A DNA stretch of 29,184 nt from Promethearchaeota archaeon. Lineage in GTDB: Archaea > Asgardarchaeota > Hermodarchaeia > Hermodarchaeales > Hermodarchaeaceae. Positions 7,287 to 22,752 of this stretch are shown here, piece after piece (position 1 is the stretch's first letter; every line of letters begins with the position of its first letter). Below the pieces are notes generated by a model that saw nothing but the letters and a program-made list of their open reading frames with translations, ran no database searches and had not been told where the DNA came from. The position numbers and the translations under genes are program-made. The stretch lies in assembly GCA_048939625.1 (NCBI GenBank), contig JBHLPH010000022.1:1-29184 (forward strand). Direction: 5' to 3'.

Positions 7287-7664
7287 TTGACAATGCAACT
7301 TGTAGAATTTGGCCTCATCCTTGTTTTCATTGCACTGATCTTCTCATCATTTCTTGCTTCCATCATTCTCTCTAGACTTGTAAGTCCCAGAAATCCATCC
7401 AAGGAAAAGACAACAAGTTTTGAATGTGGCGAAGAACCAAGCGGAGCTGGACGGGAGCAGTTCGTTTTTCGGTATTATCCCTACTTGTTGATGTTCTTAG
7501 TGTTTGATGTTTCAGCGATGTTCCTTTTTGCTTGGGCGGGGGCTTTCTCTTCGTTAGGCTTCGAACTTCATCTGGTAGTGTTAGCCTTCCTTTTGATTGT
7601 TTTACCTCCGATCGCGTATGCAGTGAATGTAGCAGCGAGGGCCGAAAGGTGGCGGGAAAAATGA
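7287..7664 (+). CDS. nuoA: Complex I-like subunit A
   Basis: 3 TM; FECGEEP loop; [11 protein letters not shown]; start is TTG 7287 or ATG 7293. Confidence 0.93.
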
Positions 7665-8176
7665 CGGCAATCGGTTCAGCCTTTGTTGGTTCACTTCGCA
7701 GTGCCTTGAATCGTGTGGTAAATGTCAAACCATTTCGATATTTGGTGAATTGGTCACGGTTGTATTCTCTCTGGCCTGTCCATTTGACTACTGCATGTTG
7801 TAGTGTGGAATTCGGAGCAACGATGGGTTCAGGCTTTGATGCAGAACGACTTGGCGTTCTTCCTCTCGGATCTTTGCGACAATGCGATCTCTTGATCATT
7901 GAGGGAACTGTAACGAAAAAAATGGCTGAGCGGATTGTTCGGATTTACCACCAGATGGCTTCTCCTCGTTATGTAATTGCCATGGGGGCTTGTGCAATAA
8001 CAGGCGGCGTTTTTCGAGGCTCTTACAGCATAGTTCCAGGCGTTGATAAGATACTCCCTGTCGATGTGTATGTCCCTGGATGTCCACCTAGACCGGAAAT
8101 GCTCATAGATGCAATTTTAGAGCTTCAACAAAAAATCAGGGAATCTAAGGTGAGTTTAGTTGATGATACAAAGTGA
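7661..8176 (+). CDS. nuoB: Complex I-like subunit B (N2 cluster)
   Basis: [19 protein letters not shown]; start ATG 7661 in ATGA overlap with the nuoA stop. Confidence 0.95.
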
Positions 8177-8468
8177 TGTGTTTGAATTGCAGGCAGAAAT
8201 CTGTAAGGTGTTAGCGAATCCAAAACGTATCCGCATTATTCACATTCTAAAAGATACTGAAAAAACAGTAACTGAAATTTCCCAGGAGCTAGGGATTACC
8301 CAATCAAATACCTCACAACACCTAATGAAAATGAAAACAAAAGGTGTCCTTAAATCGCGAAGAGACGGACGCGAGATATATTACAGCATTGCAGTTCCTG
8401 AGCTCTCCATTGCCTGTGAGTTCGTTGGACGCGCCTTGGAGAAAATCGTTGCTAGACCGATAACTTGA
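8160..8468 (+). CDS. ArsR/SmtB family repressor with two Cys, inside the nuo operon
   Basis: [13 protein letters not shown], w[31 protein letters not shown] wing, C-terminal IACEF; RBS AGGTGA at 8148 inside nuoB; start 8160 (TTG) or 8163 (ATG). Confidence 0.92.
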
Positions 8469-8481
8469 ACATAGGAGAAAG

Positions 8482-8955
8482 ATGAATTTGTCGAAGTATC
8501 TTAAAGACATGGAATCCACTTTCACAGAAACAGCAATTAAGATTAGCGACAGGCATCCAAACCAACCTGTCATTCGCACTGACCGTGAATTCCTTCAATC
8601 CATCGCGCAGTATCTAAAAGACACCGTAGGGTTCGATCATGTAATATCGGTCACGGTCATTGATGACATAGAGAATGACCAGTTTCTGATTGCGTATCAT
8701 CTTTCCTCAGTCCAAATTGTCAAACTTCATGGAATCGTCTTAACCCTAGAATTAACTGTTCCAAGAAAAAGTCCACACGTACCTTCATTGATTTCAATCT
8801 GGTCCAGTGTTGAGTTTCACGAACGCGAGGGGTGGGAGATGTTTGGTGTAGAGTTTGAAGGGCATCCTAGGCTTGAACGTCTGCTTTTACCAGAATCCTG
8901 GGAGGGGGGCAATCCACTTCGAAAAGACTTCAGATTACAGGAGGACCCACAATGA
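8482..8955 (+). CDS. nuoC: Complex I-like subunit C
   Basis: PSLISIW...FHEREGWEMFGVEFEGHPRLERLLLP..W.G.PLRKDF signature. Confidence 0.95.
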   Translation: MNLSKYLKDMESTFTETAIKISDRHPNQPVIRTDREFLQSIAQYLKDTVGFDHVISVTVIDDIENDQFLIAYHLSSVQIVKLHGIVLTLELTVPRKSPHVPSLISIWSSVEFHEREGWEMFGVEFEGHPRLERLLLPESWEGGNPLRKDFRLQEDPQ

Positions 8956-10031
8956 ATGAAATCGAGTATAGCATGGGTCCTCAACATGCAGGTACAGGCC
9001 ATATGCGGCTGAAGATCCATCTATCTGGTGACCATGTAATCCAAGCACTTCCAGATCCGGGTTATGTGCATCGGGGAGCAGAAAAGCTCTGTGAGACAAA
9101 AGAATTCCTTTGGAATATTCCCCTTCTTGAACGCGTATGTCTCCCGGATACTACATCTGCTGCATGGGGATACGTCCTCGCACTTGAGCGGCTATTGGGG
9201 GTAGAACCCACTGAGTCTGCTCGGTATATGCGTGCTTTATTCGCAGAGATGAATCGGATTGTGAGCCACCTATATTGGCTTGCAATCTTTGGTATTTTTC
9301 TTGGTCACTCAACGATGTTCATGTGGCCCTTCGCTGATCGGGAACCCTTCATTGAGCTTGCTGAAGCAATCTCCGGGGCTCGATTGACATACACTGATAT
9401 ATACCCAACTGGCGTGCGTCATGGGCTCCCGGATAATTTTGTGCCACGAATGATGAAGGTAACCAAAAATTTCCGTAGTCGTCTCGTCGATTATGAGCGG
9501 ATCTTCTTCACGACCGACATTTTCAAACAGCGAACCAAAGAGGTTGGAGTTCTCACAAAAGAGGAGGCTATTCGATTGGGAACCACAGGACCCGTTCTCA
9601 GAGGATCTGGTGTGAATTACGACCTTCGGAAAATTGATCCTTATGGACCCTATTCTAAATTAGATTTCAAAACTGCTGTTATGGATGGGGGGGATAGCTA
9701 CTCCAGAGCAATGGTTCGGTTAGAGGAAATGCGGACAAGCACCTCATTGATTGAGCAAATATTGGAGAAAATGCCTTCAGGAGAGGTCGGGTTAAGAACG
9801 CCGAAGAAAGTTCCTGCTGGCACCGCTTATACACGAGTAGAATCTGCCCGAGGCGAATTAGGGTACCTTGTTGTAAGCAATGGTGAAAAACAGCCAAGTC
9901 GCGTAAAAATTAGCACTCCGTGCTTCCGTCACCTCCCAGCTCTTGAATTCTTGCTTAAAGACATTGATCTGGCAGACGTTCCAACCATTTACTGGAGTCT
10001 TGATTACTGGCCACCAAATGCGGATAGGTAG
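8952..10031 (+). CDS. nuoD: Complex I-like subunit D (no NiFe site)
   Basis: GPQH, GYVHRGAEK, GPVLRGSG.YDLRK, ESARGE, ends SLDYWPPNADR; lacks both complete CxxC NiFe motifs. Confidence 0.93.
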   Translation: MNEIEYSMGPQHAGTGHMRLKIHLSGDHVIQALPDPGYVHRGAEKLCETKEFLWNIPLLERVCLPDTTSAAWGYVLALERLLGVEPTESARYMRALFAEMNRIVSHLYWLAIFGIFLGHSTMFMWPFADREPFIELAEAISGARLTYTDIYPTGVRHGLPDNFVPRMMKVTKNFRSRLVDYERIFFTTDIFKQRTKEVGVLTKEEAIRLGTTGPVLRGSGVNYDLRKIDPYGPYSKLDFKTAVMDGGDSYSRAMVRLEEMRTSTSLIEQILEKMPSGEVGLRTPKKVPAGTAYTRVESARGELGYLVVSNGEKQPSRVKISTPCFRHLPALEFLLKDIDLADVPTIYWSLDYWPPNADR

Positions 10032-10037
10032 TGCGTA

Positions 10038-11087
10038 ATGATGCAAGTTTTTGAAACGATTAATATGTTCATTCTGCAGATAATTGTTTTTCTTCAAGTG
10101 AATTTCACAACCATTTTTCTTATAACCGTCTTCCCCGGTTTTCTCACTATTGTTCTCGCCGCAGCAGCAATAATCTGGTTTGAACGCAAATTTCTGGCAA
10201 AAATGCAATTACGCGTAGGACCTCAATATGCAGGACGGATTGGTGGTATATTCCAACCCATCGCCGATTTTTTGAAACTCATCTTCAAAGAAGGAATAAT
10301 TCCTAAACGTGCAGATAGCTTCTTCTATCAATTGGCACCATTACTCATTGTTACCCTTGCAGCTGTTACTGCAACTGTTATTCCCGTAGGGCCCAATGCA
10401 GTGATAGCTAATCTTCAATTTGGGCTGCTATTTATTTTCGCAATTGGAGCGATTTTCCCAGTTCTAGCCTTCTTGACTGCTTGGGCGAGTAATAGTGTTT
10501 ATCCGTTTCTAGGAGGTTTACGTGCCCTTCTCCAAATGATCGCCTATGAGGTGCCCTTGTGGCTATCGGCTTTAGGAGTAGTTATTCTAGCAGGCTCTTT
10601 CAACCTCGTTGAGATTGTCTTGGCACAAAATTGGCTTTGGTTTGCAATTCTCATGCCTCTTGGTGCCATAATCTTTTTCATAGCGCTCCTAGTTGAAATT
10701 GAGCGTCTCCCCTTTGACTTGCCTGAAGCAGAACCAGAGATTGTGACAGGTTATATGAGCGAATATTCGGGGATGAACTTTGGCCTTATGATGATGTCAC
10801 AATACCTCAAGTTATACCTGGGGGCACTACTTTTCACAACTCTCTTCTTAGGGGGATGGTTAATGCCTCCGTTCATCACGAACATGTTTCCATTTATTCC
10901 GCCATTTGTATGGACCTTACTCAAAACGGCTTTTGTCGTTGTTCTCTTCCTCATTCCACGAGGAATCTATCCACGCGTGAAAATCTCGTTACTCCTTCGT
11001 TTGGGATGGAACCGTTTGTTCCTTCTTGCGATTGTGAACCTCTTCCTTGTTGTCGGAATAATGATTTTCTTCGGAGGGATTCCCTAA
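10038..11087 (+). CDS. nuoH: Complex I-like subunit H
   Basis: ERKFLAKMQLRVGP, QPIADFLKL, QMIAYEVP, RLPFDLPEAE.E..GY.SEYSG. Confidence 0.96.
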   Translation: MMQVFETINMFILQIIVFLQVNFTTIFLITVFPGFLTIVLAAAAIIWFERKFLAKMQLRVGPQYAGRIGGIFQPIADFLKLIFKEGIIPKRADSFFYQLAPLLIVTLAAVTATVIPVGPNAVIANLQFGLLFIFAIGAIFPVLAFLTAWASNSVYPFLGGLRALLQMIAYEVPLWLSALGVVILAGSFNLVEIVLAQNWLWFAILMPLGAIIFFIALLVEIERLPFDLPEAEPEIVTGYMSEYSGMNFGLMMMSQYLKLYLGALLFTTLFLGGWLMPPFITNMFPFIPPFVWTLLKTAFVVVLFLIPRGIYPRVKISLLLRLGWNRLFLLAIVNLFLVVGIMIFFGGIP

Positions 11088-11515
11088 TGCCAATTAGAGC
11101 GTCATGGGCGGGACTCAAACAACTCTTCAAGCGTCGTGTCACAATCAAATATCCAAGTAAAGAATTAGAACTGCCAAAGAGTGAAAGGGCGCGGCATGTC
11201 TTCTATTTCAATCGGTGTATTAGTTGTTCTTTATGTGCACGGAGTTGCCCAACAGCAGCTATTACTATGATTGATTATCCAGGAGAGGGAAAACCGAAAA
11301 AACACCCACAAATTGATTATGGTCGTTGCATATTTTGTGGATATTGTGTTGATGTCTGCCCAAAGCATGCCTTAGTTCATTCTCGCTATTTTCACCTCGC
11401 AGCTCGCGAAACGGACCCATTGATCTATAGCCCAGATCAACTCGCTGAGATTCCTGAAGGAGAAAAGCATCTCCTCCCCTCTGAAGAAGAATTGAAGAAG
11501 GAGGAAGAACCATGA
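11087..11515 (+). CDS. nuoI: Complex I-like subunit I (2x[4Fe-4S])
   Basis: CISCSLCARSCP and CIFCGYCVDVCP; true start ATG 11087 (TAATG overlap with the nuoH stop), not 10856. Confidence 0.94.
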   Translation: MPIRASWAGLKQLFKRRVTIKYPSKELELPKSERARHVFYFNRCISCSLCARSCPTAAITMIDYPGEGKPKKHPQIDYGRCIFCGYCVDVCPKHALVHSRYFHLAARETDPLIYSPDQLAEIPEGEKHLLPSEEELKKEEEP

Positions 11516-12030
11516 TTGATCCATTCTTCTTACCAGATCTTGGATTGCTTATAATTGGAGTGCTAACAGTCGGTGCAGCGATTGCAGCTATCGAATCTAG
11601 AGAAATCGTGTATGGAGCCATTTCATTAGCAGGTATGATCCTAGGGATTGCGGGACTTTACATCTTATTGGATGCAACTTATGCCGCAATGTTTCAAATC
11701 TCTGTGTATATAGGCGCAGTGGTAGTTCTCATTTTCTTCACTATCATGGTCGTCCCGTATGAACATTGGAAGCACCGACTCAAACGACCGTGGCGTGAAT
11801 GGCTGATTCCACTGGTTATCAATAGTTTTCTTCTCGGTGTGCTTCTCTATATTTTTTACACACCTGCCATTGTCTCAGCGTCTCCTGATCCGGCTTTCAG
11901 TTGGAATCTGACAGAACTGGCATTAGTCCTTCTACAGGATTATGGTGTGGTTCTACTAGTTCTCGGACTCGTACTCGTCTCAGCACTCCTAGGAGCGCTA
12001 ACTCTAACCAAAAAGGAGGGCGAATCCTAA
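11512..12030 (+). CDS. nuoJ: Complex I-like subunit J
   Basis: 5 TM; AMFQISVYIGAVVVLIFFTIM motif. Confidence 0.93.
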   Translation: MIDPFFLPDLGLLIIGVLTVGAAIAAIESREIVYGAISLAGMILGIAGLYILLDATYAAMFQISVYIGAVVVLIFFTIMVVPYEHWKHRLKRPWREWLIPLVINSFLLGVLLYIFYTPAIVSASPDPAFSWNLTELALVLLQDYGVVLLVLGLVLVSALLGALTLTKKEGES

Positions 12031-12350
12031 TGGCATCCCTTTACATATATCTGATTATCGTCGCTGCTCTCGCTGTTATTGGGCTCTATGGACTGACAAG
12101 TAAACGGAACGTTATGCGGTTATTCTTCAGTATTGAAATTCTCATGAATGGGGCGAACTTGAGTATTGTTGTATTTGCTCGATACGTCCTCTGGGGAACC
12201 GCAGCACTCGCAATTAATGGGCAAGCCATTGTACTTTTTGCAATTGCCCTTGAGGCTGCTGAAGCTGTCATGGCGCTTGCGATTATTCTACTAGTTTCAC
12301 GTGTGCGTGGTTCAGTTGACATCCATGAACTACATGACTTGGAGGGCTAA
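12030..12350 (+). CDS. nuoK: Complex I-like subunit K
   Basis: IGLYG...RN..RLFFSIEILMNGANL, AAEAV; start ATG 12030 overlapping the nuoJ stop. Confidence 0.93.
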   Translation: MASLYIYLIIVAALAVIGLYGLTSKRNVMRLFFSIEILMNGANLSIVVFARYVLWGTAALAINGQAIVLFAIALEAAEAVMALAIILLVSRVRGSVDIHELHDLEG

Positions 12351-12355: not shown

Positions 12356-13888
12356 ATGCAGACAATATTCGACTCGATCATATTATTCCTGCAAACGTAC
12401 CCACTAACCCTTGGTGTATTCCTTCCAATTCTCTTTGCTGGGTTAATCCTCTTCTTCGCCCGTTACAGAGAGCGTCTAGCAGTCTGGTTAGGTGTTCTGG
12501 CGATTTTCCTTTCTACTGCCCTGGTTTTTTTCCGAGGCTTTGATTTATTTCCATTCTCAGCTACCTCACCCGCTATTGTTACTGAGACATTTCTCTGGAT
12601 TCCTACGCTTAATGTCACTCTCAGTTTCATGCTTGATGGTCTCAATTTCCCCATCGTTCTTATCACAGCTATTGTAACCACGCTTATACTTCTTTTTAGT
12701 AGACATTTCTTTGAAGGTGAGAAGAATAGTGGAACCTACATCGCAACCATCATCATGATGTATATCGGAATGCTTGGTGTATTTGTTGCAGCAGATATTT
12801 TCTTATTCTATCTTTTTTGGGAAATCACAATAATCCCAGCATATGCATTGGTCATCTATTGGCGAGAAGCAGGAGTCTCTAAGGAAGAGGCTCGAAGGAC
12901 CGGTTTGAAGTTCTTCCTTTGGACCCATGTCGGGTCGCTTGTCATGCTCATGGGCTTAATCCTCGTTTTCATCCTAACTGGTACAACAAATATGGTCGAT
13001 ATCCCTATAGCGCTAACAACTGTGCCAATAACAAGCATCCACATAATGCAATTTGCGGCAGCAGCACTGATTTTTGGATTCATCGTCAAACTCGGTATCT
13101 TCCCCGTCCATAGCTGGCTCCCAGATACTTACGTTCAAGTGTCCTCACCTGCTACAGCCTTGTTTGGTGGACTTCTTGCTAACATTGGAGCTTATGGTTT
13201 AATTCGTATTGCCGCAAGTTGGTTTCCATTCATTTTGGCCACTTGGTCACTTCCGCTAGGATTGATAGCTGTAGTCTCAATCATCTATGGTGGCTATATC
13301 GCGTTAGGTCAAGGAGAGTTCAAACGACGATGGGCATATTCCAGTGTGAGTCAAGGCGGATACATTCTCCTTGGAGTCGCCTCAGTGACCTCCCTTGGAT
13401 TAGCTGGTGCAGCCTTTCATGTAATCAATTCCGCAATCATTAAATCGGGACTATTTCTCACCGCTGGCGCTTATCTCATGGTTCTAAAAACTACTGACAT
13501 TGAGTCCCTTCGAGGTATGGGCACAAAGATACCAATAACTGGTATTGCCTTCCTTCTTGCGGCCTTGGCAATGGCAGGAATTCCTCCCCTAAGTGGATTC
13601 ATTAGCGAAGTCCTCATCTTCTTGGGGATTTTCACTATTTCAAGTGCCCTTATTATAGCACTAATTGGTGCAGCCGCGATTCTGGTGACTTTTGTATACG
13701 TGCTGGGTCCCATCTACAAACTTTTCGTGGCACCGCCCAAAACCGAACAACCTCAATTCAAAGATCCAAGCATATGGCAAACGATTCCAATCATCCTCTT
13801 GACAATCTTTGTGTTCATTCTCGGGATTTGGCCTAATCTGGTGTTGACACCAATTGAACATTGGCTACAGAGTATAGGAGGACTCTAA
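12356..13888 (+). CDS. Extra antiporter-like subunit M' (NuoM/MrpD-like)
   Basis: 510 aa; FWE (TM5 Glu), VKLGIFPVHSWLPD (TM7 Lys), AYSSVSQ, FH...IKSGLF, PPLSGFISE (TM12 Glu). Confidence 0.9.
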   Translation: MQTIFDSIILFLQTYPLTLGVFLPILFAGLILFFARYRERLAVWLGVLAIFLSTALVFFRGFDLFPFSATSPAIVTETFLWIPTLNVTLSFMLDGLNFPIVLITAIVTTLILLFSRHFFEGEKNSGTYIATIIMMYIGMLGVFVAADIFLFYLFWEITIIPAYALVIYWREAGVSKEEARRTGLKFFLWTHVGSLVMLMGLILVFILTGTTNMVDIPIALTTVPITSIHIMQFAAAALIFGFIVKLGIFPVHSWLPDTYVQVSSPATALFGGLLANIGAYGLIRIAASWFPFILATWSLPLGLIAVVSIIYGGYIALGQGEFKRRWAYSSVSQGGYILLGVASVTSLGLAGAAFHVINSAIIKSGLFLTAGAYLMVLKTTDIESLRGMGTKIPITGIAFLLAALAMAGIPPLSGFISEVLIFLGIFTISSALIIALIGAAAILVTFVYVLGPIYKLFVAPPKTEQPQFKDPSIWQTIPIILLTIFVFILGIWPNLVLTPIEHWLQSIGGL

Positions 13889-13898
13889 CAATGCTTCC
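13874..13898 (+). repeat. Imperfect direct repeat, copy 1 (M'/M'' junction)
   Basis: ATAGGAGGACTCTAACAATGCTTCC. Confidence 0.7.
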
Positions 13899-15516
13899 TG
13901 GAATTGCCCTTCCATTCCCATTCTTACTTCTATCCCTTCTCATTCCAGTTATCGCAGGGATTATTATCTTACTCTCCCTTTTAGTAGGAAAACCCCTTGG
14001 ACGAAAAGGTTCCGGAATCATTGCCTCGATTGCCCTGGCAATTTCATTCATCACTCTTCTTTATGTTCTTAGTATTGTACTCACTTTGGGACAACCAGTC
14101 TACGAAGAACATTATTGGTTCTCAATAGGAACAGTGATCGTCGAATTTTCACTCCTCGCAGATTTCCTAAGTCTTCCCCTTTCATTGGCGATTGTTGGAT
14201 TGTGTACTGCATCAGCAGTATACAGCATCGAATACATCAAAGACAAACACGATTTTGCCATGTACTATGTTCTGTTACTCCTCTTTGCAGTCGGCATGTT
14301 AGGAGTGACCTTGGCAACGAACCTTCTCGTATTTTTCATCTTCTTTGAAGGCATGAACATTCCCGCATACTTCCTTGTCTCTAACTGGGGTACGAAGAAA
14401 GCAAAAATCATTGGTGTGAAATATATCCTCTATGTTTTTATCGGTGCTATTTGTATTCTTGCTGCAATTTTTTGGGTCTTCGGTATCACTAGCGCTTTGG
14501 GTACTCCGACACTAAATATCTATGAGATCCCTGCATTACTTAGTCCTCTTGCTTCAACGAGCCTACTTATCATGCAAAGCCTTGCCCTCCTTTTTTCCAT
14601 CGGATTCTTTGTGAAAATGGCAATATTTCCCCTTCATTCTTGGCTCCCTGATTTTCATGGAGAAGCCCCCGTGCCCATTCATGCTTTATTGAGCGCTGTT
14701 ATGATTAAAACAGGTGCTTATGGCTTCATCCGTATTACCTACTTCTTCTTCCCGCTTGTCGTATTACAAGCCTCAATTCTCCTAGCCGTTCTTGCTATTA
14801 TCACGATGATTTGGGGAGCAGGTATGGCCTTGGTTCAAACGGATTACAAACGTGTACTCGCCTATAGCTCAGTCAATCAGATCGGTTACATCCTTCTAGG
14901 CTTTAGTACAATGAACATTTTCGGAATCACGGGAGCCCTCTTTCATATCCTGACTCATGGCCTGTCGAAAGGCGTCTTACTCTATACTGCAGGCTCCGTC
15001 GTCCATTCTGCAGGAACAAAACTCATCAACAAGATGGGAGGTTTAGCTTCGAAGATGCCTCTGACAGCAACTTTGAGCACCATAGGCGCATTAGCTATCG
15101 CAGGAACACCACCACTTGCCACATTTGTCAGTGAGGCCCTAATCTTCATCGGTGTCTTCACTGTAGGTGTCAACTATCCGATATTTACTGTCATAGGGGT
15201 AATTGGCATCATTTCCACAGCGCTTACTGCAGCATATTATTTGTGGACTGTGCGTCGGATGTTCCTCGGTCCGCCATCCACGGAAATGGGCAAAACATAC
15301 GAAGAATATCTCGCTGGCAGATACATTTCACCAGAGGGTATTCCACGTCGATTCGAGGATGTCCACGAATCACCGCCTTTGATGACCATTCCGATGTTGA
15401 TTGTCGCGTTACTCATAATTCTCCTTGGTGTGTTTGCAGGCTTTATTCTCCCAATCATTTACCCTGCAGCTGAATCGGTCATTGCAATTCTAATAGCTGC
15501 AATAGGAGGACTCTGA
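13891..15516 (+). CDS. Extra antiporter-like subunit M'' (NuoM/MrpD/HyfB-like)
   Basis: FFE, VKMAIFPLHSWLPDFH, HALLSAVMIKTGAYG, FHILTHGLSKG, FVSE; start ATG 13891 after GGAGG. Confidence 0.9.
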   Translation: MLPGIALPFPFLLLSLLIPVIAGIIILLSLLVGKPLGRKGSGIIASIALAISFITLLYVLSIVLTLGQPVYEEHYWFSIGTVIVEFSLLADFLSLPLSLAIVGLCTASAVYSIEYIKDKHDFAMYYVLLLLFAVGMLGVTLATNLLVFFIFFEGMNIPAYFLVSNWGTKKAKIIGVKYILYVFIGAICILAAIFWVFGITSALGTPTLNIYEIPALLSPLASTSLLIMQSLALLFSIGFFVKMAIFPLHSWLPDFHGEAPVPIHALLSAVMIKTGAYGFIRITYFFFPLVVLQASILLAVLAIITMIWGAGMALVQTDYKRVLAYSSVNQIGYILLGFSTMNIFGITGALFHILTHGLSKGVLLYTAGSVVHSAGTKLINKMGGLASKMPLTATLSTIGALAIAGTPPLATFVSEALIFIGVFTVGVNYPIFTVIGVIGIISTALTAAYYLWTVRRMFLGPPSTEMGKTYEEYLAGRYISPEGIPRRFEDVHESPPLMTIPMLIVALLIILLGVFAGFILPIIYPAAESVIAILIAAIGGL

Positions 15517-15525
15517 AATGCTTCC
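15502..15525 (+). repeat. Imperfect direct repeat, copy 2 (M''/nuoL junction)
   Basis: ATAGGAGGACTCTGAAATGCTTCC. Confidence 0.7.
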
Positions 15526-17551
15526 ATATGCACAATGGCTCACTTGGATCCTCCCACTACTGGGTGCGGTTCTTATTGCTCTGATTGGATGGTTCGACAA
15601 ACGGATTCCTAAGTACATTGCAGTTATAATCGGTGCAATTGCGGGTGTATTCGCTAGTTCCATGATTCCAGATATTCTAGCCCTACCCTCCTTGGGATTA
15701 CCACATATTGAGTTCAACATACCGTGGGTTGTTCTTCCAGGAGTTACAATTTATGTTGGCGTTCTCCTAGACCCACTCAGCGTCTTTATGGCGAACATTG
15801 CCGTCTTAATCGGCTTCTTAATCGTTGTTTATTCTATGAGCTATATGGGAGAAGATAAAAGCCAAACCCGATATTATGCTCTGATTTTACTTTTCATAGG
15901 CGCTATGGCAGGATTAGTTCTTGCCAACAACTTTCTCCAGCTATTCATCTTCTGGGAAGTTGTAGGCGTCTGCTCTTATGCCTTAATTGGGTTCTGGTAT
16001 GAGAAACCCGAAGCCGCAAGAGCAGGAATGAAAGCCTTCGTTGTCACCCGGGTAGGGGATGTGTTTCTCCTAGTTGGAATCATCTTTCTCTTTACACAAG
16101 TAGGATCATTCAATTACATCGTTATTCAGGACGCTGTGGAACTTGGATTGATTAGCCTATCTGCGCTTACTATGATCTCACTCTTCACCTTTGGAGGTGC
16201 CATGGGTAAATCAGCTCAGGTTCCCTTCCACGTCTGGCTTCCAGATGCAATGCAAGGCCCAACACCTGTTAGTGCTCTCATCCACGCGGCAACAATGGTG
16301 AAGGCAGGAATTTACCTTGTTGGTCGAACCTTCTTCCTCTTTGGATCTGTGACCCTCTGGCTAAACACGGTCATAATAATTGGCTCAATCACCGCTATAT
16401 TGGCAGCCACTATTGCCTTAGTTTCAACAGATCTCAAGGGCGTTCTCGCGTATTCGACCATAAGTCAACTTGGCCTCATTATGGCGGCTCTAGGAGTTGG
16501 TACAACTCTGGGTTGGTTTGCAGGGCAAGCACATGTAATGAGCCACGCCATCTTCAAAGCTCTGCTTTTCCTTTGTGCTGGTTCAATTCTACATGCAGTA
16601 ATGACCATTGACATTAACCAGATGGGTGGTCTTCGTCAGAAAATGCCAATTACTTTTGCAGCCAGTATAATTGGTGTTCTAGCGCTAGCGGGTATTTTCC
16701 CATTTAATGGATTCTGGAGTAAGGACCTCATTTTTGCAGCAACATTGCACTCAGGTGCACTCATATCTCTAACCCTTCTTTGGGCTGCTTCCGTGCTCAC
16801 GGTTGCTTATAGTTTTCGCTGGATCATCTTGATTTTCATGGGTAAACCACGTAATGAAGAAATTGCTACTCACGCCCATGAAAGTCCTAAATTGCTTACC
16901 GTTCCACTCATGATCTTAGCTATTGGAGTCATCCTCTCTGCCTTTCTAATTCCCACAGGATTACTTGCCACATACTTCGATGCCCATATCCATTTCGAAA
17001 TTGAACTAATTCCGCTCTTACTTTCTCTGTCCACCCTTGTAATCGGCGGTATTCCTGCGATTCTCATCTATAAATACCGAAAACCCGCGCCGGAATTCTT
17101 CAGTCAGAATCGCATCACTCGTGCAATTCAAACCGTATTAAGTAATGGCTACTATTTCGATAAGATTTATGACTGGATATTTGTACGCGGTATTCTTCGT
17201 ATCTTCAACTTCATTCTTTCACGGATTGAACTTGGAACTCTCGACCGATTCCACTACGTCTTTGCGCCTAAGGTTGAAGCGGGAAGTAGAATCTTGGATC
17301 GGGTGGTCGAATCAAGAGGAGTTGAGGGTGTAAATTACAAGTTTGCACGATTTATGGTGAAAACCTCGAACGCCAGCAACTACGTTGATGCCAACATAGT
17401 TGACGGAGCAGTAAATGGCATCGCCAAAGTAGGAGAAAAGGCTTCTAGAAGCTTACGTAGAGTGCAAACAGGCATTACCATGAATTATGTCCTGGCCTTT
17501 GTTATTGGTATAATTCTATTGATCCTCTTTCTTGTGCTATTGGGTTGGTGA
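15518..17551 (+). CDS. nuoL: Complex I-like subunit L with extended lateral helix
   Basis: 677 aa; FWEVVG, KAFVVTRVGD, GKSAQVPFHVWLPDAM.GPTPVSALIHAATMV, HAIFKALLF, WSKD; YYFD...QTG segment is 108 aa. Confidence 0.96.
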   Translation: MLPYAQWLTWILPLLGAVLIALIGWFDKRIPKYIAVIIGAIAGVFASSMIPDILALPSLGLPHIEFNIPWVVLPGVTIYVGVLLDPLSVFMANIAVLIGFLIVVYSMSYMGEDKSQTRYYALILLFIGAMAGLVLANNFLQLFIFWEVVGVCSYALIGFWYEKPEAARAGMKAFVVTRVGDVFLLVGIIFLFTQVGSFNYIVIQDAVELGLISLSALTMISLFTFGGAMGKSAQVPFHVWLPDAMQGPTPVSALIHAATMVKAGIYLVGRTFFLFGSVTLWLNTVIIIGSITAILAATIALVSTDLKGVLAYSTISQLGLIMAALGVGTTLGWFAGQAHVMSHAIFKALLFLCAGSILHAVMTIDINQMGGLRQKMPITFAASIIGVLALAGIFPFNGFWSKDLIFAATLHSGALISLTLLWAASVLTVAYSFRWIILIFMGKPRNEEIATHAHESPKLLTVPLMILAIGVILSAFLIPTGLLATYFDAHIHFEIELIPLLLSLSTLVIGGIPAILIYKYRKPAPEFFSQNRITRAIQTVLSNGYYFDKIYDWIFVRGILRIFNFILSRIELGTLDRFHYVFAPKVEAGSRILDRVVESRGVEGVNYKFARFMVKTSNASNYVDANIVDGAVNGIAKVGEKASRSLRRVQTGITMNYVLAFVIGIILLILFLVLLGW

Positions 17552-17557
17552 GTCAAA

Positions 17558-19018
17558 ATGGTTCTATGGGAATATGCGTTACTCATATTGATTGGTGGAG
17601 CACTCCTTGGCTCCCTCATCTCATACCTGCTTGGGCGGTTAGGTTCAATGATTGTCAAAGGCTTTGCTGTAGCCTGGACAACTCTATTGTTCCTCTTCAC
17701 AGGATTATTATGGTTAGGATTCAACCCAAGCACACCAGGATTCTCCTACCTAATTGATATTCCTTGGATACCAACTCTTGGAGTTACTTTCAAACTTGGT
17801 GTTGACGGAATCAGTTTTCCACTTCTGCTAGCAACAACACTTCTTACCCTAGCTGCGGCGATTGGGTCCATCACGCTAATCAAAGAACGCGTTGCCATAT
17901 ACTTCGGTACCCTCTTGCTATTGGAAGCAGCTCTCATGGGAGTTTTTATGTCATTGAACCTTCTCGTCTTTTTCATCTTCTGGGAACTCGTTCTAATCCC
18001 CATGTTCATCTTAATCGGTGTATGGGGTGGTGCAAACCGCCGTTATGCCGCAATGAAATTCCTCATCTTTACCCATGTCGGAAGCATCCTGATGCTTCTA
18101 GGATTTATCATGCTCTTCCTCTTTGCAGGCACCTGGGATTTAACGTACTTCCTCACATCACCCATCCCCTTTGCTGTGGCACTGCCGATAATGATCATCA
18201 CCTTCATTGGATTTGCAGTGAAGTTACCCGTCGTTCCCCTTCACACCTGGCTCCCAGATGCACACGTAGAAGCCCCAGCACCTATCAGCATTATTCTTGC
18301 TGGAGTTTTACTAAAAATGGGAGGATATGGATTCATTCGAATTTCAATCGGCGTATTTCCACAGATCGCAGCGCTCCTTGCCCCAATCATTATGAGCCTC
18401 GGTATTATCACGATCTTCTATGGGGCCCTCGTCGCATTGAACCAACGGGATATGAAACGCATGATTGCTTTGACCAGTATCAATCATATGGGACTGGTCT
18501 TACTCGGAGCGTTTACCCTAACAACAATCGGAGTGACTGGAGCTGTTTTTATGATGTTTAATCATGCATGTGCAATTGGATTGATGTTTTTACTCACTGG
18601 TGTTATCCAGAAACGTGCTGGAACCCGAAACATCGATGAGCTTTCAGGCATGGGCGAATTGATGCCACGAACAGCTCTATTCTTTGTCTTAGGGGCACTC
18701 GCGTCAATGGGTATACCATTCTTCGCGCCCTTTGTCAGCGAATTCATGATCTTTTCAGGAACCCTTTCAATTCTGCCTCTTCTAGTTTTTGTGATCCTCG
18801 CCCCTGGGATTGTCGTTGCCTACTTCTTATGGACGATTGATCGAATAATTATTTCAGATCCCCATCCCGGAACTCGCATGCGACGAGCCCGTCTTACTGA
18901 ACTTATCGCGCTATCGTTACTTCTACTTCCCATCATTCTCCTTGGACTCTTTCCAGCTATGATGGTTGACCGAATTTTACCTGCTATACAGCTCTTATTA
19001 AGTGGTGGAGGTTCGTAA
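17558..19018 (+). CDS. nuoM: Complex I-like subunit M (canonical)
   Basis: FWELVLIP, VKLPVVPLHTWLPDAHVEAP, LAGVLLKMGGYG, NHMG, FVSEF. Confidence 0.95.
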   Translation: MVLWEYALLILIGGALLGSLISYLLGRLGSMIVKGFAVAWTTLLFLFTGLLWLGFNPSTPGFSYLIDIPWIPTLGVTFKLGVDGISFPLLLATTLLTLAAAIGSITLIKERVAIYFGTLLLLEAALMGVFMSLNLLVFFIFWELVLIPMFILIGVWGGANRRYAAMKFLIFTHVGSILMLLGFIMLFLFAGTWDLTYFLTSPIPFAVALPIMIITFIGFAVKLPVVPLHTWLPDAHVEAPAPISIILAGVLLKMGGYGFIRISIGVFPQIAALLAPIIMSLGIITIFYGALVALNQRDMKRMIALTSINHMGLVLLGAFTLTTIGVTGAVFMMFNHACAIGLMFLLTGVIQKRAGTRNIDELSGMGELMPRTALFFVLGALASMGIPFFAPFVSEFMIFSGTLSILPLLVFVILAPGIVVAYFLWTIDRIIISDPHPGTRMRRARLTELIALSLLLLPIILLGLFPAMMVDRILPAIQLLLSGGGS

Positions 19019-20488
19019 ATGCAACTTGCTGAATTAATCACTTTGTTCAATGCTCTACTTGCAAGCCCCTTCTTCCCATTCATCGTATTTGCCATTCTCG
19101 GATTGCTTACACCTGTTATTAATCGGATTTTTCGAGGGAAAGTTACGCCTTACTGGCCTTTAGTCAGCCTAGGTATATTTGCGGTGCTGGTTTTGCCAAG
19201 ATGGGCAACTGTGGTCACTTCCCCAATTGTGACCCCGAGCCTCCTCTTTGATGGTATTAGCCTTTTCTTTGTTACCCTGTTCATTGTTGTTGGTTTTGCT
19301 GTAATCATTGCGTCAATAGATTACTTCAAGGAAAATCCCAATCAAGAAATCTTCTACACTTTGTTGCAGTTGGCGCTTCTTGGCATGATGCTGATTTCCA
19401 TGGCCGTTGATTTAATTGTCATGTTCGCCGGATGGATTCTCGTCGCCGTTACCAGCTACACTCTTGTGGTAATTCGCAAAGAGGATGCTAAGGGTGCTGA
19501 GGCAGGTGTGAAATACTTCATAATGGGTGCATCATCCTCAGCTATTCTCTTTCTCGGCATCTCAATAATATTCGGACTCACCGGAAGCACCCAACTAACA
19601 GAAATTTCTACAGCTTTGGCTACACTCGATTCGAACCTTATTCCTCTTGCATTACTAGGCATAATGTTGATTCTCGTAGGATTTGGATTCAAAATAGGCA
19701 TCGTCCCATTTCACATGTGGTTACCTGACACATACGAAGGGGCCCCACAGCCAGTTTCCGCATTTCTCGGCGGAGGCTCAAACAAAGCTGCATTCGCTGC
19801 TGCTATCCGTGTCTTCATTCTGGGATTTCTAGTTTTCCGCTTCCAATGGACCGTAGCCTTTGCTTTTCTAGCCCTAATTACTATGACGTGGGGAAACATT
19901 GCTGCTCTTTCCCAGAAAACCCTTCCAAGGTTGCTTGCATACTCAGCTATTGCTCAAGCAGGATACACAATCATCGGTCTAGCCGTGCCAACAGCCTTAG
20001 GATTATCTGGTTTTATGTTTCATGCATTGAATGACGCGTTAGCCAAGACAGGAGCTTTCATTGCAGCAGCAGCCGTTGCATTTACTCTTTCGAAAACCAG
20101 CCTTTCAGATTATAAAGGCCTGGGCAAGCGAATGCCAATCACAGCGTTCAGCCTAACGATTCTGTTATTAGCCCTAGCAGGTATTCCTCCGCTAAGCGGT
20201 TTCTTCAGCAAATTGATCTTGTTTACAGCAGCCGTTGAGGTTGGATTAATTTGGTTAGCTCTTGCGGGAGTTCTTAACAGTGCATTTTCTCTCGCATATT
20301 ATGGATGGATAATCAAACGAATGTACATGGATGAACCTGATGAACCAAGCGCTGATCAAACGGTCAAAGAATCGCGTAAATTCCAATTCGCACTCATTGC
20401 ACTTGCTGCTATCACAATCCTCATTGGGCTATTTAGCGGCATAATTATCGGATACATCGAAACCATAGTAATTGGATTCTACCCCTAA
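19019..20488 (+). CDS. nuoN: Complex I-like subunit N
   Basis: EAGVKYFIMGA.SS, GFKIGIVPFHMWLPDTYEGAP, RLLAYSAI, GIPPLSGFFSK, AYY. Confidence 0.94.
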   Translation: MQLAELITLFNALLASPFFPFIVFAILGLLTPVINRIFRGKVTPYWPLVSLGIFAVLVLPRWATVVTSPIVTPSLLFDGISLFFVTLFIVVGFAVIIASIDYFKENPNQEIFYTLLQLALLGMMLISMAVDLIVMFAGWILVAVTSYTLVVIRKEDAKGAEAGVKYFIMGASSSAILFLGISIIFGLTGSTQLTEISTALATLDSNLIPLALLGIMLILVGFGFKIGIVPFHMWLPDTYEGAPQPVSAFLGGGSNKAAFAAAIRVFILGFLVFRFQWTVAFAFLALITMTWGNIAALSQKTLPRLLAYSAIAQAGYTIIGLAVPTALGLSGFMFHALNDALAKTGAFIAAAAVAFTLSKTSLSDYKGLGKRMPITAFSLTILLLALAGIPPLSGFFSKLILFTAAVEVGLIWLALAGVLNSAFSLAYYGWIIKRMYMDEPDEPSADQTVKESRKFQFALIALAAITILIGLFSGIIIGYIETIVIGFYP

Positions 20489-20507: not shown

Positions 20508-21869
20508 TCACTCATTTGGTGAATTTATTTGTAAGAACCGTCCAACGAGGGTGACAATATCGAGCACGGGAATTTCCAAGCCAAGCTTTTGCATCCCATG
20601 TGTGAGATTAAGCACACAGAAGGGACATGCTGAGACAACCATGGTTGCTCCCACATCTACGATTTCACCAACGCGTTCCCACGCCATACGATCTTCTAAC
20701 GGCATCACAGCCTTCTCTTCTTCGGAAAGTTCACGATACCCCTTTGTAAGCTTTTTTGCAGCCGCCTTTACTTGAGCAGGTGAACTCCTTGGTTCAGTAT
20801 CATAGATTCGCTTTGCAGCAATTTCCAAAGCAAGCTCGGGAATACCGGCTTTGACTCCACCTCCCGCTCCACAGCATCGCGAGTATTCTCGGGTGCGACT
20901 CATTTCAACCAGTGTTATGTTGGGTAAAAGATCGAGGATTCGCCGTGGAGCATCATACACGCCAACATGTCGACCAAGATGGCAAGGATCATGGTAGGCG
21001 ACACGTTCTCTGACACCTGGAAGGGGTTTAATGTCAATATGCTCTAGAGCCTTGGCGAGTAATTGAGTGATGTGTTGTACTTTGAATGGTAGTTTTCCGT
21101 AGTATCGGGGCCAATCGAATACGGATGTTCGGAAACAACCGGAGCAGGAATAGACGACGAGTTTGACACCTTTTTCTTTGATAGTGTCCACATTGTGTTG
21201 GACTAAATCCTTAACAACCTCAATTTGCCCAGTTCGGATGAGAGGGGAACCACAACATCGTTCATCATTCCCTGGTAGTACAAAATCAATATCAAGTTTA
21301 TTTAAAATCCGAGCCGTGGTGATAGCAAGATGTTGCATTTTATATGAAGAGGTGCATCCAACGAAGTAGGCGACATCAGCAGTCTCAGCAACCCTAACGT
21401 CCGCAGGGAGCCAATCTGTGCGGGAGAGATGATCTTCGCCATACGGGTTAAATCTAGTTTTTACGTTGTTCGGCCAGTCCCGCTGACGTTCCAGTGGACC
21501 AAAACCCTGTTTCACCATATCAGCGCGTATCGTTTCCCATAAATCGCAACTCTTTATCCGTGATTCACACACCGTTTGACATTGTCCACAAACAGTACAA
21601 AGATACAGGTCTTCAACGAACTTGTCAATCTTATTCCTATCAATGACACTTCCCCCGCGAGCACGTCCCAAGATTCCATAAATATGTTTGACCATTTGTC
21701 GCAGATTTCGGATTTTTCCACGTGCTGTTACACCTTCACGTTGTAACTGATCAAAGACTGGGCAGAACTTAACACATTCACCACAATCAACACAGGCATC
21801 CAGTTCCATTGTTTGCTTCCGCGTTAATTGTGGGAAACTAATCTTTTCCTTATTCGTCGTCACTTTCAT
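20508..21869 (-). CDS. HdrD/GlpC-like Fe-S oxidoreductase (2x[4Fe-4S] + two CCG domains)
   Basis: CVDCGECVKFCP, CTVCGQCQTVC; YFVGC..RCCG..CSGC; YHDPCHLGR..RCCGAGGG..ACPFC; start ATG 21869 (GGGAG upstream) overlapping the end of the cytochrome b gene. Confidence 0.88.
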   Translation of the reverse strand: MKVTTNKEKISFPQLTRKQTMELDACVDCGECVKFCPVFDQLQREGVTARGKIRNLRQMVKHIYGILGRARGGSVIDRNKIDKFVEDLYLCTVCGQCQTVCESRIKSCDLWETIRADMVKQGFGPLERQRDWPNNVKTRFNPYGEDHLSRTDWLPADVRVAETADVAYFVGCTSSYKMQHLAITTARILNKLDIDFVLPGNDERCCGSPLIRTGQIEVVKDLVQHNVDTIKEKGVKLVVYSCSGCFRTSVFDWPRYYGKLPFKVQHITQLLAKALEHIDIKPLPGVRERVAYHDPCHLGRHVGVYDAPRRILDLLPNITLVEMSRTREYSRCCGAGGGVKAGIPELALEIAAKRIYDTEPRSSPAQVKAAAKKLTKGYRELSEEEKAVMPLEDRMAWERVGEIVDVGATMVVSACPFCVLNLTHGMQKLGLEIPVLDIVTLVGRFLQINSPNE

Positions 21870-22578
21870 CAACTCCCGTAACTTCCCGGATATATTCCTC
21901 CTCCCACTTTTCTTCAATAGTACTGCGAACCATAATGATAGGGGCTGCGATGATATGCTGGAATTTTGAATAGAATAAAACTGCGATCATCGTCCAAATA
22001 ATGAATCCGTGAATGATTCCATACAATCCTCTGATACCAATCACGTATTCATATGAGAAAGCCATATGCCCTGATAATGCAATGGAAAGTAGTAGAATCA
22101 GTGGCAGGTAATTATGGAGGTTAGTAACCGCTCGCCCCTCTTTCGAACCAATGCGACTCCCAAAAGCCATTATTACACCGAGTACAAGCAATATAGTCAA
22201 TACATCGTGAGCAATTATTCGCATTTCCAGTGTAGCCCAAGGAAAGAGAATGGTTTCATTAAGTAAAATGAGCCGAGGGATCCCATGGAAGAGAAGGAGA
22301 CCTACAAATCCCACTATAATGAATCCGTGTTTCACCCACCGATACACAGACTGACGTCTTATCGTTCCACCAAAAGTCCAATCAGAGATTACCGTCTTAA
22401 CAAAAGCTACAAATTTTGTTCGAAAAGGCACCTCAATGAGCCAACCAGCTGTATACTCAGCAGGTTCTTTGTGTGGTTTCGTCCAGCGGACGAGAATCCG
22501 AATGAAACCAATCGTAAACAGGGCTAACGCAATCCAACGATAGAAAAATAAAATTTGATACGCTAGCTCTTGTTCCAT
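21850..22578 (-). CDS. HdrE/NarI-like di-heme cytochrome b membrane anchor
   Basis: About 5 TM; His pairs WVKHG..LFHG and IIHG..KFQH (18 apart) as in the NarI family; overlaps the HdrD-like gene. Confidence 0.8.
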   Translation of the reverse strand: MEQELAYQILFFYRWIALALFTIGFIRILVRWTKPHKEPAEYTAGWLIEVPFRTKFVAFVKTVISDWTFGGTIRRQSVYRWVKHGFIIVGFVGLLLFHGIPRLILLNETILFPWATLEMRIIAHDVLTILLVLGVIMAFGSRIGSKEGRAVTNLHNYLPLILLLSIALSGHMAFSYEYVIGIRGLYGIIHGFIIWTMIAVLFYSKFQHIIAAPIIMVRSTIEEKWEEEYIREVTGVDESDDE

Positions 22579-22671
22579 AAGATCGCACCTTTAACCTCTA
22601 TTCAAATGCCCCAGATTTTCATCAAAAGGCTTCCCAATTTACTATTCGTACCTCTTTTCAAAGAGAACATA

Positions 22672-22734
22672 CAATGAAAAAAGAAAGGGGGAAAATTGGA
22701 GGGCTAATGATCTTGGGGTCACGCCCTCCAATTT
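22672..22734 (-). terminator. Hairpin plus pyrimidine/U tract downstream of the doxX-like gene
   Basis: Perfect 12-bp stem AAATTGGAGGGC (22693-22704)/GCCCTCCAATTT (22723-22734), followed on the minus strand by TCCCCCTTTCTTTTTT. Confidence 0.65.
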
Positions 22735-22752
22735 GGTTTTCGTTATGTAAAT

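What the first reader, a model, noticed from the sequence alone, without database searches (positions are those of the whole stretch)
17150..17473. NuoL lateral helix doubled: four ~27-aa repeat units, matching two additional subunits
Seen: the YYFD...QTG segment (aa 545-652) is 108 aa and splits into four units anchored on hydrophobic-D/E positions spaced 28, 27 and 26 aa apart. The units are YYFDKIYDWIFVRGILRIFNFILSRIEL / GTLDRFHYVFAPKVEAGSRILDRVVES / RGVEGVNYKFARFMVKTSNASNYVDA / NIVDGAVNGIAKVGEKASRSLRRVQTG. Recalled knowledge: this segment is about 53-55 aa (two units, spanning M and N) in standard NuoL/Nqo12, and 2M complexes carry an insertion of about 26 aa. Inference: an extra ~54 aa equals two more subunit widths. 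This is independent structural evidence that M' and M'' are both built into the same membrane arm.
Basis: partly seen in the sequence, partly recalled or inferred. Interest (0 to 1): 0.92.

Follow-up and report, generated by a model that had tools for sequence, protein, structure and literature searches.

The report
Double-length clamp helix in five-pump complex I
The NuoL subunit of an Asgard archaeon's complex I-like enzyme has a membrane-surface clamp helix twice the usual length (four 26-28-residue units instead of two), long enough to strap five proton-pump subunits into one arm, although related enzymes show that a long helix alone does not prove extra subunits are attached.

Summary
NuoL (15518-17551, 677 aa) carries a 108-aa lateral helix (HL, aa 545-652). 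It has four amphipathic units, each with a conserved acidic pair, and is 52-55 aa longer than in solved NuoL/NdhF structures. AlphaFold2 models it as helix 544-599 plus 603-650, followed by TM16.

Across about 150 related loci, HL length falls into discrete classes of about 27, 55, 80, 108 and 131 aa (1-5 units).

The operon is nuoA-B-(ArsR)-C-D-H-I-J-K-M'-M''-L-M-N. It has five antiporter-like genes, and no nuoF was found in the genome.

No gene cluster has more pump genes than HL units + 1. All 14 four-pump clusters have at least 3 units. All three five-pump lineages have 4 units.

However, long helices also occur without extra pumps. About 20 three-unit helices sit in three-pump clusters. 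A complete Asgard genome (G067) has a 4-unit HL but only three pump genes. Two 5-unit helices also sit in three-pump clusters.

So the helix is long enough for a five-pump arm and fits one, but it is not independent proof.

This is a new "3M" variant of the known 2M-type complex I.

The parts
15518..17551 (+). nuoL (677 aa), the distal antiporter-like subunit that carries the lateral helix
   Evidence: NF005141 569 bits and TIGR01974 544 bits, both above cutoff. Pfam Proton_antipo_N, Proton_antipo_M and NADH5_C. The AF2 model matches NuoL/NdhF/ND5 chains with TM-score 0.74-0.79.
17006..17074 (+). TM15 (aa 497-519), the last core-side helix before HL
   Evidence: AF2 helix 497-519; hydropathy.
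17150..17473 (+). Lateral helix HL, aa 545-652. Four units of 26-28 aa: U1 545-572, U2 573-599, U3 600-625, U4 626-652.
17219..17383 (+). Excess over the canonical HL (aa 568-622, 55 aa, about two units). Boundaries come from the alignment gap against NdhF 6hum_F.
   Evidence: Class lengths of 55 versus 108 aa.
17477..17545 (+). TM16 (aa 654-676), the C-terminal membrane anchor after the conserved RRxQTG motif
   Evidence: AF2 helix 654-676. G652 is invariant and Q650/T651 are conserved.
12030..12350 (+). nuoK (106 aa)
   Evidence: Pfam Oxidored_q2; translation; gene call in relatives.
12356..13888 (+). M' (510 aa), an extra NuoM-like antiporter subunit. It keeps the TM5 Glu, TM7 Lys and TM12 Glu. 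The TM8 Lys is replaced by Asn.
   Evidence: TIGR01972 321 bits; alignment A3.
13891..15516 (+). M'' (541 aa), an extra NuoM-like antiporter subunit. It keeps the TM5 Glu, TM7 Lys, TM8 Lys and TM12 Glu. Its stop codon lies 1 nt before the nuoL start.
   Evidence: TIGR01972 298 bits; A3. It is orthologous to the gene just upstream of L in L104, L015 and L105.
17558..19018 (+). nuoM (486 aa), the canonical M
   Evidence: TIGR01972 458 bits.
19019..20488 (+). nuoN (489 aa), with a TM12 Lys. The TM5 Glu position reads Ile.
   Evidence: TIGR01770 336 bits; A3.
7287..12030 (+). nuoA, nuoB, an ArsR-type HTH gene, then nuoC, nuoD, nuoH, nuoI, nuoJ. This is the redox and connecting module. There is no nuoEFG.
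   Evidence: Pfam; operon in relatives. No PF01512 (NuoF) was found in the 87.6%-complete genome.

Best explanation
aa 545-652 of NuoL is the amphipathic lateral helix HL, the strap that leaves the distal pump subunit, runs along the membrane arm and ends in the anchor helix TM16.

Here HL has four 26-28-aa units where canonical complex I has two. Each unit has the pattern acidic-x4-acidic, then hydrophobic/aromatic-x-hydrophobic-Ala. One unit of alpha-helix is about 39 A (26 x 1.5 A), roughly the width of one 14-helix antiporter-like subunit.

The most likely arrangement is a '3M' complex I-like enzyme. NuoL sits at the tip, and its roughly 160-A HL passes over M'', M', M and N (order inferred) before TM16 docks near the proximal end. 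This would clamp five pump modules into one arm.

Shown here: the length, the helicity in a model, the amphipathicity, the periodicity, the conservation, the operon with five intact pump genes, and the one-sided rule that pump number never exceeds units + 1.

Inferred: physical contact of HL with M' and M'', the subunit order, and a stoichiometry of up to 6 H+ per 2 e-.
For: 1. The insertion of 53-55 aa maps inside HL.
2. AF2 models it as helix 544-599 plus 603-650, followed by TM16. It is amphipathic at z 3.2 and periodic at 26-27 aa at z 3.7, with conserved acidic pairs in each unit.
3. HL length is quantised in homologs at 27, 55, 80, 108 and 131 aa.
4. Cross-tabulation of about 150 loci:
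- 1 unit: always 2 pumps (11 loci).
- 2 units: 3 pumps (58 loci).
- All 14 four-pump clusters have 3 units; the three loci of a fourth-pump paralogous complex (L105-107) have 4.
- All five-pump clusters have 4 units.
- There is no case of n > units + 1.
5. The three five-pump lineages are the window's genus (L001, L002, L101, L097), G305 (L104, a different family) and the P0030 lineage (L162).
6. Independent pairs on a tree built from the L core only: 6-7 contrasts between clusters with at least 4 pumps and those with fewer. On average 5.2 have a longer HL, 0.8 show no difference and none go the opposite way (median p 0.06).
7. The closest relative with a standard HL (P0026, 49-52% identity) has K-N'-M''-L. 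That is three pumps with a 55-aa HL, and its M'' is orthologous to the window's M''. M'' is therefore a genuine arm partner of L in that relative.
8. M' and M'' keep the channel residues TM5 Glu, TM7 Lys and TM12 Glu. Their genes sit between nuoK and nuoL with gaps of 1-6 nt.
9. From the literature: truncating HL in E. coli gives a fragile, inactive complex, and a 6-7-aa insertion between L and M lowers pumping efficiency (PMC3274701). A 26-aa HL insertion accompanies one extra NuoM in 2M complexes (as quoted in PMC9040806).
Against: A long HL is not sufficient to show extra pumps.
- G067 is one contig and 96% complete. It has a 4-unit HL (107 aa) but only three antiporter-like genes in the genome.
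- L105-107, a paralogous complex in the same genus, have 4 units with four pumps.
- L012 (Fpo-like) and L013 (hydrogenase-like) have 5 units with three pumps.
- About 20 clusters have 3 units with three pumps.

Within the small clade that holds the window's NuoL, HL varies from 2 to 5 units while all other members have three pumps. Length is therefore labile.

pLDDT in HL is only 60-69, and no multi-subunit model or structure exists. The phylogenetically corrected association is only borderline (p about 0.06).
Confidence: 0.7

Rival explanations
1. The four-unit HL is a lineage trait unrelated to M'/M''. HL length drifts in 26-aa steps by unit duplication and loss. The extra length may cover other parts of the arm (the K/J/A/H region or accessory proteins) or may simply be tolerated. 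On this reading its match to five pumps is coincidence or a leftover, and it says nothing about whether M'/M'' are assembled.
For: G067 has 4 units with three pumps in a complete genome. L105-107 have 4 units with four pumps. L012 and L013 have 5 units with three pumps. About 20 clusters have 3 units with three pumps. Unit number varies from 2 to 5 in the window's own NuoL clade. Recent tandem unit duplications are visible in P0037 and P0049. Yu et al. also found HL insertions in complexes with the standard pump number (PMC9040806).
Against: No cluster in about 150 has n > units + 1. All three five-pump lineages have exactly 4 units, and every four-pump cluster has at least 3 units. Independent contrasts never go the opposite way.
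Confidence: 0.2
2. The five pump genes are not all in one arm. The operon may encode alternative or separate assemblies, for example K-M'-M''-L as in the P0026-type enzyme and L-M-N as in canonical complex I, or M'/M'' may form an Mrp-like side module.
For: The relative P0026 builds a complete three-pump arm from K-N'-M''-L alone. M' lacks the TM8 Lys and N lacks the TM5 Glu, so not all modules are canonical.
Against: There is a single nuoL and a single copy each of nuoA, H, J and K. All five genes are tightly coupled in one operon that is conserved in three lineages. An HL of 4 units would be unnecessary for three-pump assemblies of the P0026 type, which use 2 units.
Confidence: 0.07
3. The 55-aa insertion is a loop or small globular element rather than a continuation of the amphipathic helix.
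For: pLDDT is 60-69 in this stretch. It contains one Pro (P584) and several Gly, and there is a predicted 3-residue break at 600-602.
Against: DSSP on the model is helical throughout apart from that 3-residue break. The stretch has a significant helical hydrophobic moment and a lag-4 signal. The inserted units repeat the sequence pattern of the canonical units.
Confidence: 0.03

Closest known systems
Canonical NuoL / Nqo12 / ND5 / NdhF lateral helix HL (E. coli 3RKO, T. thermophilus 4HE8, T. elongatus 6HUM)
   Same: It has the same protein family, the same TM15-HL-TM16 architecture, the same start motif (G-Y-Y-F-D-x-x-Y) and the same end motif (R-R-x-Q-T-G). The HL is amphipathic.
   Different: The HL here is 108 aa (4 units) against about 55 aa (2 units). 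No solved chain covers aa 568-622.
2M-type complex I of Nitrospira and others (Chadwick et al. 2018, ISME J; known here only through citing papers PMC9040806 and PMC7419157)
   Same: It has a supernumerary NuoM-like subunit and no nuoEFG. The HL is lengthened in a 26-aa step. Nitrospira loci in my survey (L036, L081) have 3 units and four pumps.
   Different: There are two extra M-type genes rather than one, and two extra HL units rather than one. The host is archaeal (Asgard), and its NuoL does not group with the bacterial 2M NuoLs, so the resemblance is convergent.
Complex_I_3 of 'Ca. Manganitrophaceae' (Yu et al. 2022, PMC9040806)
   Same: It has five ion-pumping subunits in one gene cluster and an HL extension. 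A role in reverse electron transport has been proposed for it.
   Different: In that complex two MrpD-like subunits replace NuoL and the HL carries a single 26-aa insertion. Here there is one bona fide NuoL with a double insertion plus three M-type subunits and N.
Asgard complex I-like group 4 [NiFe]-hydrogenase complexes with a full-length HL (Valentin-Alvarado et al. 2024, PMC11291895); P0026-type loci L015 and L016
   Same: Closest NuoL relatives (49-52% identity), with an orthologous M'' immediately upstream of L.
   Different: Those complexes have a NiFe large subunit, three pumps and a 2-unit HL. The window's NuoD lacks the NiFe cysteine motifs, and the enzyme has five pumps and a 4-unit HL.

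Membership tests
NuoL (NADH-quinone oxidoreductase subunit L / ND5) | Score above the curated cutoff of the NuoL models | tested here: met
   NF005141 scores 569.1 against 556. TIGR01974 scores 544.3 against 407.5.
NuoL (NADH-quinone oxidoreductase subunit L / ND5) | C-terminal extension of TM15, lateral helix and TM16 | tested here: met
   AF2 gives helix 497-519, helices 544-599 and 603-650, and helix 654-676. The C-terminus aligns to NdhF and Paracoccus NuoL.
NuoL (NADH-quinone oxidoreductase subunit L / ND5) | Channel residues: TM5 Glu, TM7 Lys, TM12 Lys | tested here: met
   E147, K231 and K402 are invariant in 150 homologs.
2M-type complex I (Chadwick 2018) | Extra NuoM-like gene in the nuo operon | tested here: met
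   There are two, M' and M''. Both pass TIGR01972 and both have the NuoM-type TM12 Glu.
2M-type complex I (Chadwick 2018) | A single insertion of about 26 aa in HL (3 units) | tested here: not met
   The insertion is 53-55 aa, giving 4 units.
2M-type complex I (Chadwick 2018) | No nuoEFG (N-module) in the cluster | tested here: met
   The operon runs A-B-ArsR-C-D-H-I-J-K-M'-M''-L-M-N. No PF01512 hit was found in the 87.6%-complete genome.
2M-type complex I (Chadwick 2018) | NuoL belongs to the bacterial 2M clades | tested here: not met
   On the FastTree of the L core, the window groups with Asgard and metagenome NuoLs (L015-17, L128-129, L012). It does not group with Nitrospira L036/L081.
Manganitrophaceae Complex_I_3 | Two MrpD-like subunits in place of NuoL | tested here: not met
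   There is a single NuoL above the equivalog cutoff, and the extra subunits score best as NuoM.
Group 4 [NiFe]-hydrogenase / MBH-type complex | NiFe-binding CxxC motifs in the large subunit | tested here: not met
   NuoD has only three Cys (47, 63, 324). There is no N-terminal RxCGxC motif and no C-terminal DPCxxC motif.
MBS-type sulfane-sulfur reductase (P. furiosus 6U8Y) | Large subunit of MbsL type | tested here: inconclusive
   NuoD scores 241.9 bits over its full length to 6u8y_L and 243 bits to complex I 49-kDa subunits. The catalytic-site residues were not analysed.

The most novel reading that the evidence does not exclude
HL may be a modular ruler made of 26-aa repeats (1 to 5 units seen). 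It would grow by tandem unit duplication, and its unit number would cap how many pump modules a complex I-like enzyme can hold.

At least three Asgard or related lineages may have used a 4-unit ruler to build a single-arm, five-pump '3M' enzyme moving up to 6 H+ per 2 e-. This enzyme may link ferredoxin to a quinone or sulfur acceptor. It could run in reverse to make low-potential reductant from sulfur-derived quinol, given the neighbouring SQR, DsrE, DoxD and HdrD-like genes.
Probability: 0.35. Interest if true: 0.8.

Novelty: new variant of a known kind. Interest (0 to 1): 0.6.

Why it matters
Complex I normally has three antiporter-like pumps. Four-pump (2M) versions were a surprise in 2018. 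A five-pump bacterial hybrid was called unique in 2022.

A five-pump arm held by one roughly 160-A helix, found in archaea related to the eukaryotic host lineage, would be the longest complex I membrane arm proposed so far. It would imply a very high H+/e- ratio or strong reverse electron transport.

The quantised HL length, with the rule that pump number never exceeds units + 1, gives a simple sequence-only screen for unusual pump numbers. It also offers a natural test of whether HL is a passive clamp. The exceptions (long HL, few pumps) are open questions in their own right.

Tried and rejected
- Complex prediction, NuoL aa 497-677 with M'': no verdict. This is not evidence either way. The 1000-residue limit rules out modelling the whole arm.
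- The Chadwick 2018 paper is not held, so its content is taken only from citing papers.
- DNA-level tandem or direct repeats in 17000-17600: none found.
- Automatic HL measurement gave some artefacts. L084:551 is not an L subunit. L125, L120, L117, L027, L133 and L136 were misclassified through TM15 detection. All were resolved by reading the sequences. None is a real case of n > units + 1.
- The independent-pairs test for two or fewer pumps against one or fewer units was uninformative, because partial or split clusters also count as two or fewer.
- Several 4-unit representatives lie on contigs too short to count pumps: P0027, P0036, P0047, P0041 and P0033.
- The literature searches found no prior description of a 3M enzyme, a double HL insertion or an Asgard five-pump complex. 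This covers only the held library.
Full report
WHAT IS THERE

The window carries a nuo-type operon on the + strand: nuoA, nuoB, an ArsR-type HTH gene, nuoC, D, H, I, J, K, and then five antiporter-like genes. These are M' (12356-13888), M'' (13891-15516), nuoL (15518-17551), nuoM (17558-19018) and nuoN (19019-20488).

The same operon occurs in closely related MAGs labelled Promethearchaeota, that is, Asgard archaea. No nuoEFG lies in the cluster. No NuoF domain was found in the 87.6%-complete genome.

NuoD lacks the NiFe cysteine motifs, and NuoB keeps the four N2-cluster cysteines. The finding's coordinates are exactly aa 545-652 of NuoL.

CHECKING THE OBSERVATION

NuoL passes the curated NuoL models. 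Against solved structures the C-terminus aligns in two pieces that leave aa 568-622 unmatched. The excess is 55 aa relative to NdhF 6HUM and 53 aa relative to Paracoccus NuoL 8QBY.

AlphaFold2, run with 150 homologs (mean pLDDT 91), models aa 544-599 and 603-650 as two long helices with a 3-residue break, followed by TM16 at 654-676. Confidence inside HL is modest, at pLDDT 60-69. The model matches NuoL/NdhF/ND5 chains with TM-score 0.74-0.79, and no solved chain contains the extra stretch.

The segment is amphipathic. Its mean hydrophobic moment is 1.06 against 0.69 +/- 0.11 for shuffles, peaking at 90-100 degrees.

A profile autocorrelation over 15 homologs at 35-84% identity peaks at lag 4 (z 4.1), lags 26-27 (z 2.5 and 3.7) and lag 53 (z 2.7). 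Each unit carries a conserved acidic anchor (D548, D576, E603, D629). In units 2-4 a second acidic residue lies five positions upstream (E571, E598, D624).

The four-unit description is therefore real. The units are old quasi-repeats, because no repeat is visible in the DNA.

HL LENGTH IS QUANTISED

Among 173 NuoL homologs, the distance from the HL start motif to TM16 falls into discrete classes. Measured from the start motif to the QTG motif, the classes are about 27, 55, 80, 108 and 131 aa, which is 1 to 5 units of 26 aa.

Cut in 26-aa steps from QTG, every class shows the same repeated pattern of hydrophobic-hydrophobic-Asp. Two homologs show recent tandem duplication of a unit: LKHGYFFD twice in P0037 and GLDRLCY two to three times in P0049, both at 26-aa spacing.

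One unit of alpha-helix is 26 x 1.5 A = 39 A. From general knowledge of complex I structures, this is about the width of one antiporter-like subunit.

DOES LENGTH TRACK PUMP NUMBER?

I collected gene contexts from three sources:
- 80 GTDB species representatives.
- 60 loci from 400 genomes of the window's phylum.
- Contigs that encode representative proteins.

I then counted antiporter-like ORFs in each same-strand cluster. The results were:
- 1 unit: always two pumps (11 Asgard loci).
- 2 units: three pumps (58 loci). A few isolated ndhF-type genes are the exceptions.
- 3 units: three pumps (20 loci) or four pumps (14 loci, counting L056 and L060). Every other four-pump cluster has this class; the exception is the L105-107 group below.
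- 4 units: five pumps in the window's genus (L001, L002, L101, L097/L103), in G305 (L104, another family) and in the P0030 lineage (L162). At least four pumps in L161. Four pumps in L105-107, a paralogous complex in the window's own genus. Three pumps in G067 (L153).
- 5 units: three pumps (L012, an Fpo-like cluster, and L013, a hydrogenase-like cluster).

No real case has more pumps than units + 1.

On a tree built only from the NuoL core, with HL excluded, there are 6-7 independent contrasts between clusters with at least four pumps and clusters with fewer. On average about 5.2 of them have a longer HL, 0.8 show no difference, and none go the other way (median sign-test p 0.06).

THE COUNTER-EXAMPLES MATTER

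G067 is a single-contig genome, 96% complete, with only three PF00361 genes in total. Its NuoL nevertheless has a clear 4-unit, 107-aa HL.

Within the clade that holds the window's NuoL, HL ranges from 2 to 5 units, while every member other than the window's lineage has three pumps. Yu et al. made the same point for one-unit insertions in Manganitrophaceae (PMC9040806).

It is not a count of them.

ARE M' AND M'' REAL ARM COMPONENTS?

Both score as NuoM. Both keep the TM5 Glu, the TM7 Lys and the NuoM-type TM12 Glu. M' has Asn at the TM8 Lys position.

On a tree of antiporter-like subunits, each of M', M'', M and N is closest to the gene at the same operon position in G305's five-pump operon. 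M'' is also orthologous to the gene directly upstream of L in the P0026-type enzyme (K-N'-M''-L, three pumps, 2-unit HL) and in the four-pump paralog L105.

M'' is thus an arm partner of L wherever it occurs. The Asgard series K-L-M-N, K-M''-L-M-N and K-M'-M''-L-M-N is accompanied by HL of at least 2, at least 3 and 4 units respectively.

MECHANISM

The best reading is a '3M' complex I-like enzyme. The 4-unit HL would strap M'', M', M and N to the distal NuoL, with TM16 as the anchor.

E. coli mutagenesis shows that HL is needed for a stable, active complex and that its geometry between L and M affects pumping efficiency (PMC3274701).

Five pumps plus the E-channel would allow up to 6 H+ per 2 e- (inference). 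That requires a large redox span, or reverse operation.

The neighbouring genes suggest a link to sulfur/quinone metabolism but were not analysed further. They include an SQR-like flavoprotein, DsrE, DoxD/DoxX, an HdrD-like CCG protein and prenyltransferases. In addition, NuoD is as similar to the MBS large subunit as to complex I 49-kDa subunits.

WHAT IS KNOWN

The held literature has three relevant precedents:
- Four-pump 2M complexes with a 26-aa HL insertion (Chadwick 2018, cited in PMC7419157 and PMC9040806).
- A five-pump bacterial hybrid with MrpD-like subunits and one 26-aa insertion, described as unique (PMC9040806).
- Asgard hydrogenase complexes with a full-length HL (PMC11291895).

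My searches found no description of a double HL insertion, a 3M complex or a five-pump Asgard enzyme. This covers only the held library. The Asgard oxygen-metabolism preprint mentions only shorter arms.

VERDICT

The helix is long enough for a five-pump arm, three independent five-pump lineages show the same length, and the rule that pump number never exceeds units + 1 holds throughout. Several relatives with surplus helix show that length alone does not prove M' and M'' are attached.

A complex prediction of the HL fragment with M'' gave no verdict.

This is a new variant of a known kind, of moderate to high interest.

Noticed in passing
window 8160-8468 (+): An ArsR/HTH_5 regulator gene sits between nuoB and nuoC. 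It is conserved at the same place in relatives (L001, L002).
   Followed up: partly
window 19019-20488 (+), NuoN, TM5: In the five-subunit alignment NuoN has Ile (GWILVA) where L, M, M' and M'' have the conserved TM5 Glu (FWE/FFE). This was not checked in orthologs.
   Followed up: no
window 12356-13888 (+), M', TM8: M' has Asn (LLANIGAYG) at the position of the TM8 Lys, which is kept in M'', M, N and L.
   Followed up: partly
window 8952-10031 (+), NuoD: NuoD has no NiFe cysteine motifs. It scores equally to complex I 49-kDa subunits (243 bits) and, over its full length, to the P. furiosus MBS large subunit 6u8y_L (242 bits). The acceptor could be a quinone or a sulfur species.
   Followed up: partly
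window 1436-7070 (-) and 20508-23451 (-): The operon is flanked by a UbiA prenyltransferase, a polyprenyl synthetase, a geranylgeranyl-reductase-like gene, an SQR-like flavoprotein, DsrE, an HdrD-like CCG/4Fe-4S protein and DoxD/DoxX. This is a quinone/sulfur redox neighbourhood.
   Followed up: no
G000:C9:163889-169057 (-); G104 contigs C5, C2, C4: The window's genome has a second cluster with three antiporter-like genes (724-aa L-like). A genome of the same genus (G104) carries three Nuo-like clusters with 5, 4 and 3 pump genes.
   Followed up: partly
L153 (G067:C1:4873100-4892400): This complete Asgard genome has only three antiporter-like genes, but its 757-aa NuoL has a 4-unit, 107-aa HL. 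What the surplus helix covers is unexplained.
   Followed up: partly
L012 3615-5753 and L013 10001-12040: These NuoL-like proteins have 5-unit HLs (131-133 aa) in three-pump clusters. One has an FrhB/FpoF-like gene. The other is a group-4 hydrogenase-like cluster with hyp genes.
   Followed up: partly
L121 (G075:C50:1747-6601): Two NuoL-like genes lie in tandem (722 and 749 aa), with 3-unit and 4-unit HLs respectively.
   Followed up: no
L162 1771-11522: This is a five-pump cluster from a metagenome with the order nuoA, nuoH, a fused nuoJ-K gene (277 aa), then five antiporter-like genes. No nuoB/C/D/I lie between A and H.
   Followed up: no
P0037 aa 541-580; P0049 aa 600-660: Near-exact tandem duplications of a 26-aa HL unit are present (LKHGYFFD twice; GLDRLCY two to three times). 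HL therefore appears to grow by unit duplication.
   Followed up: partly
window 26492-27957: A Ras/Rab-like small GTPase gene (27406-27957, -) converges on a gene for a protein with a TackOD1 output domain (26492-27397, +). This is typical Asgard content.
   Followed up: no
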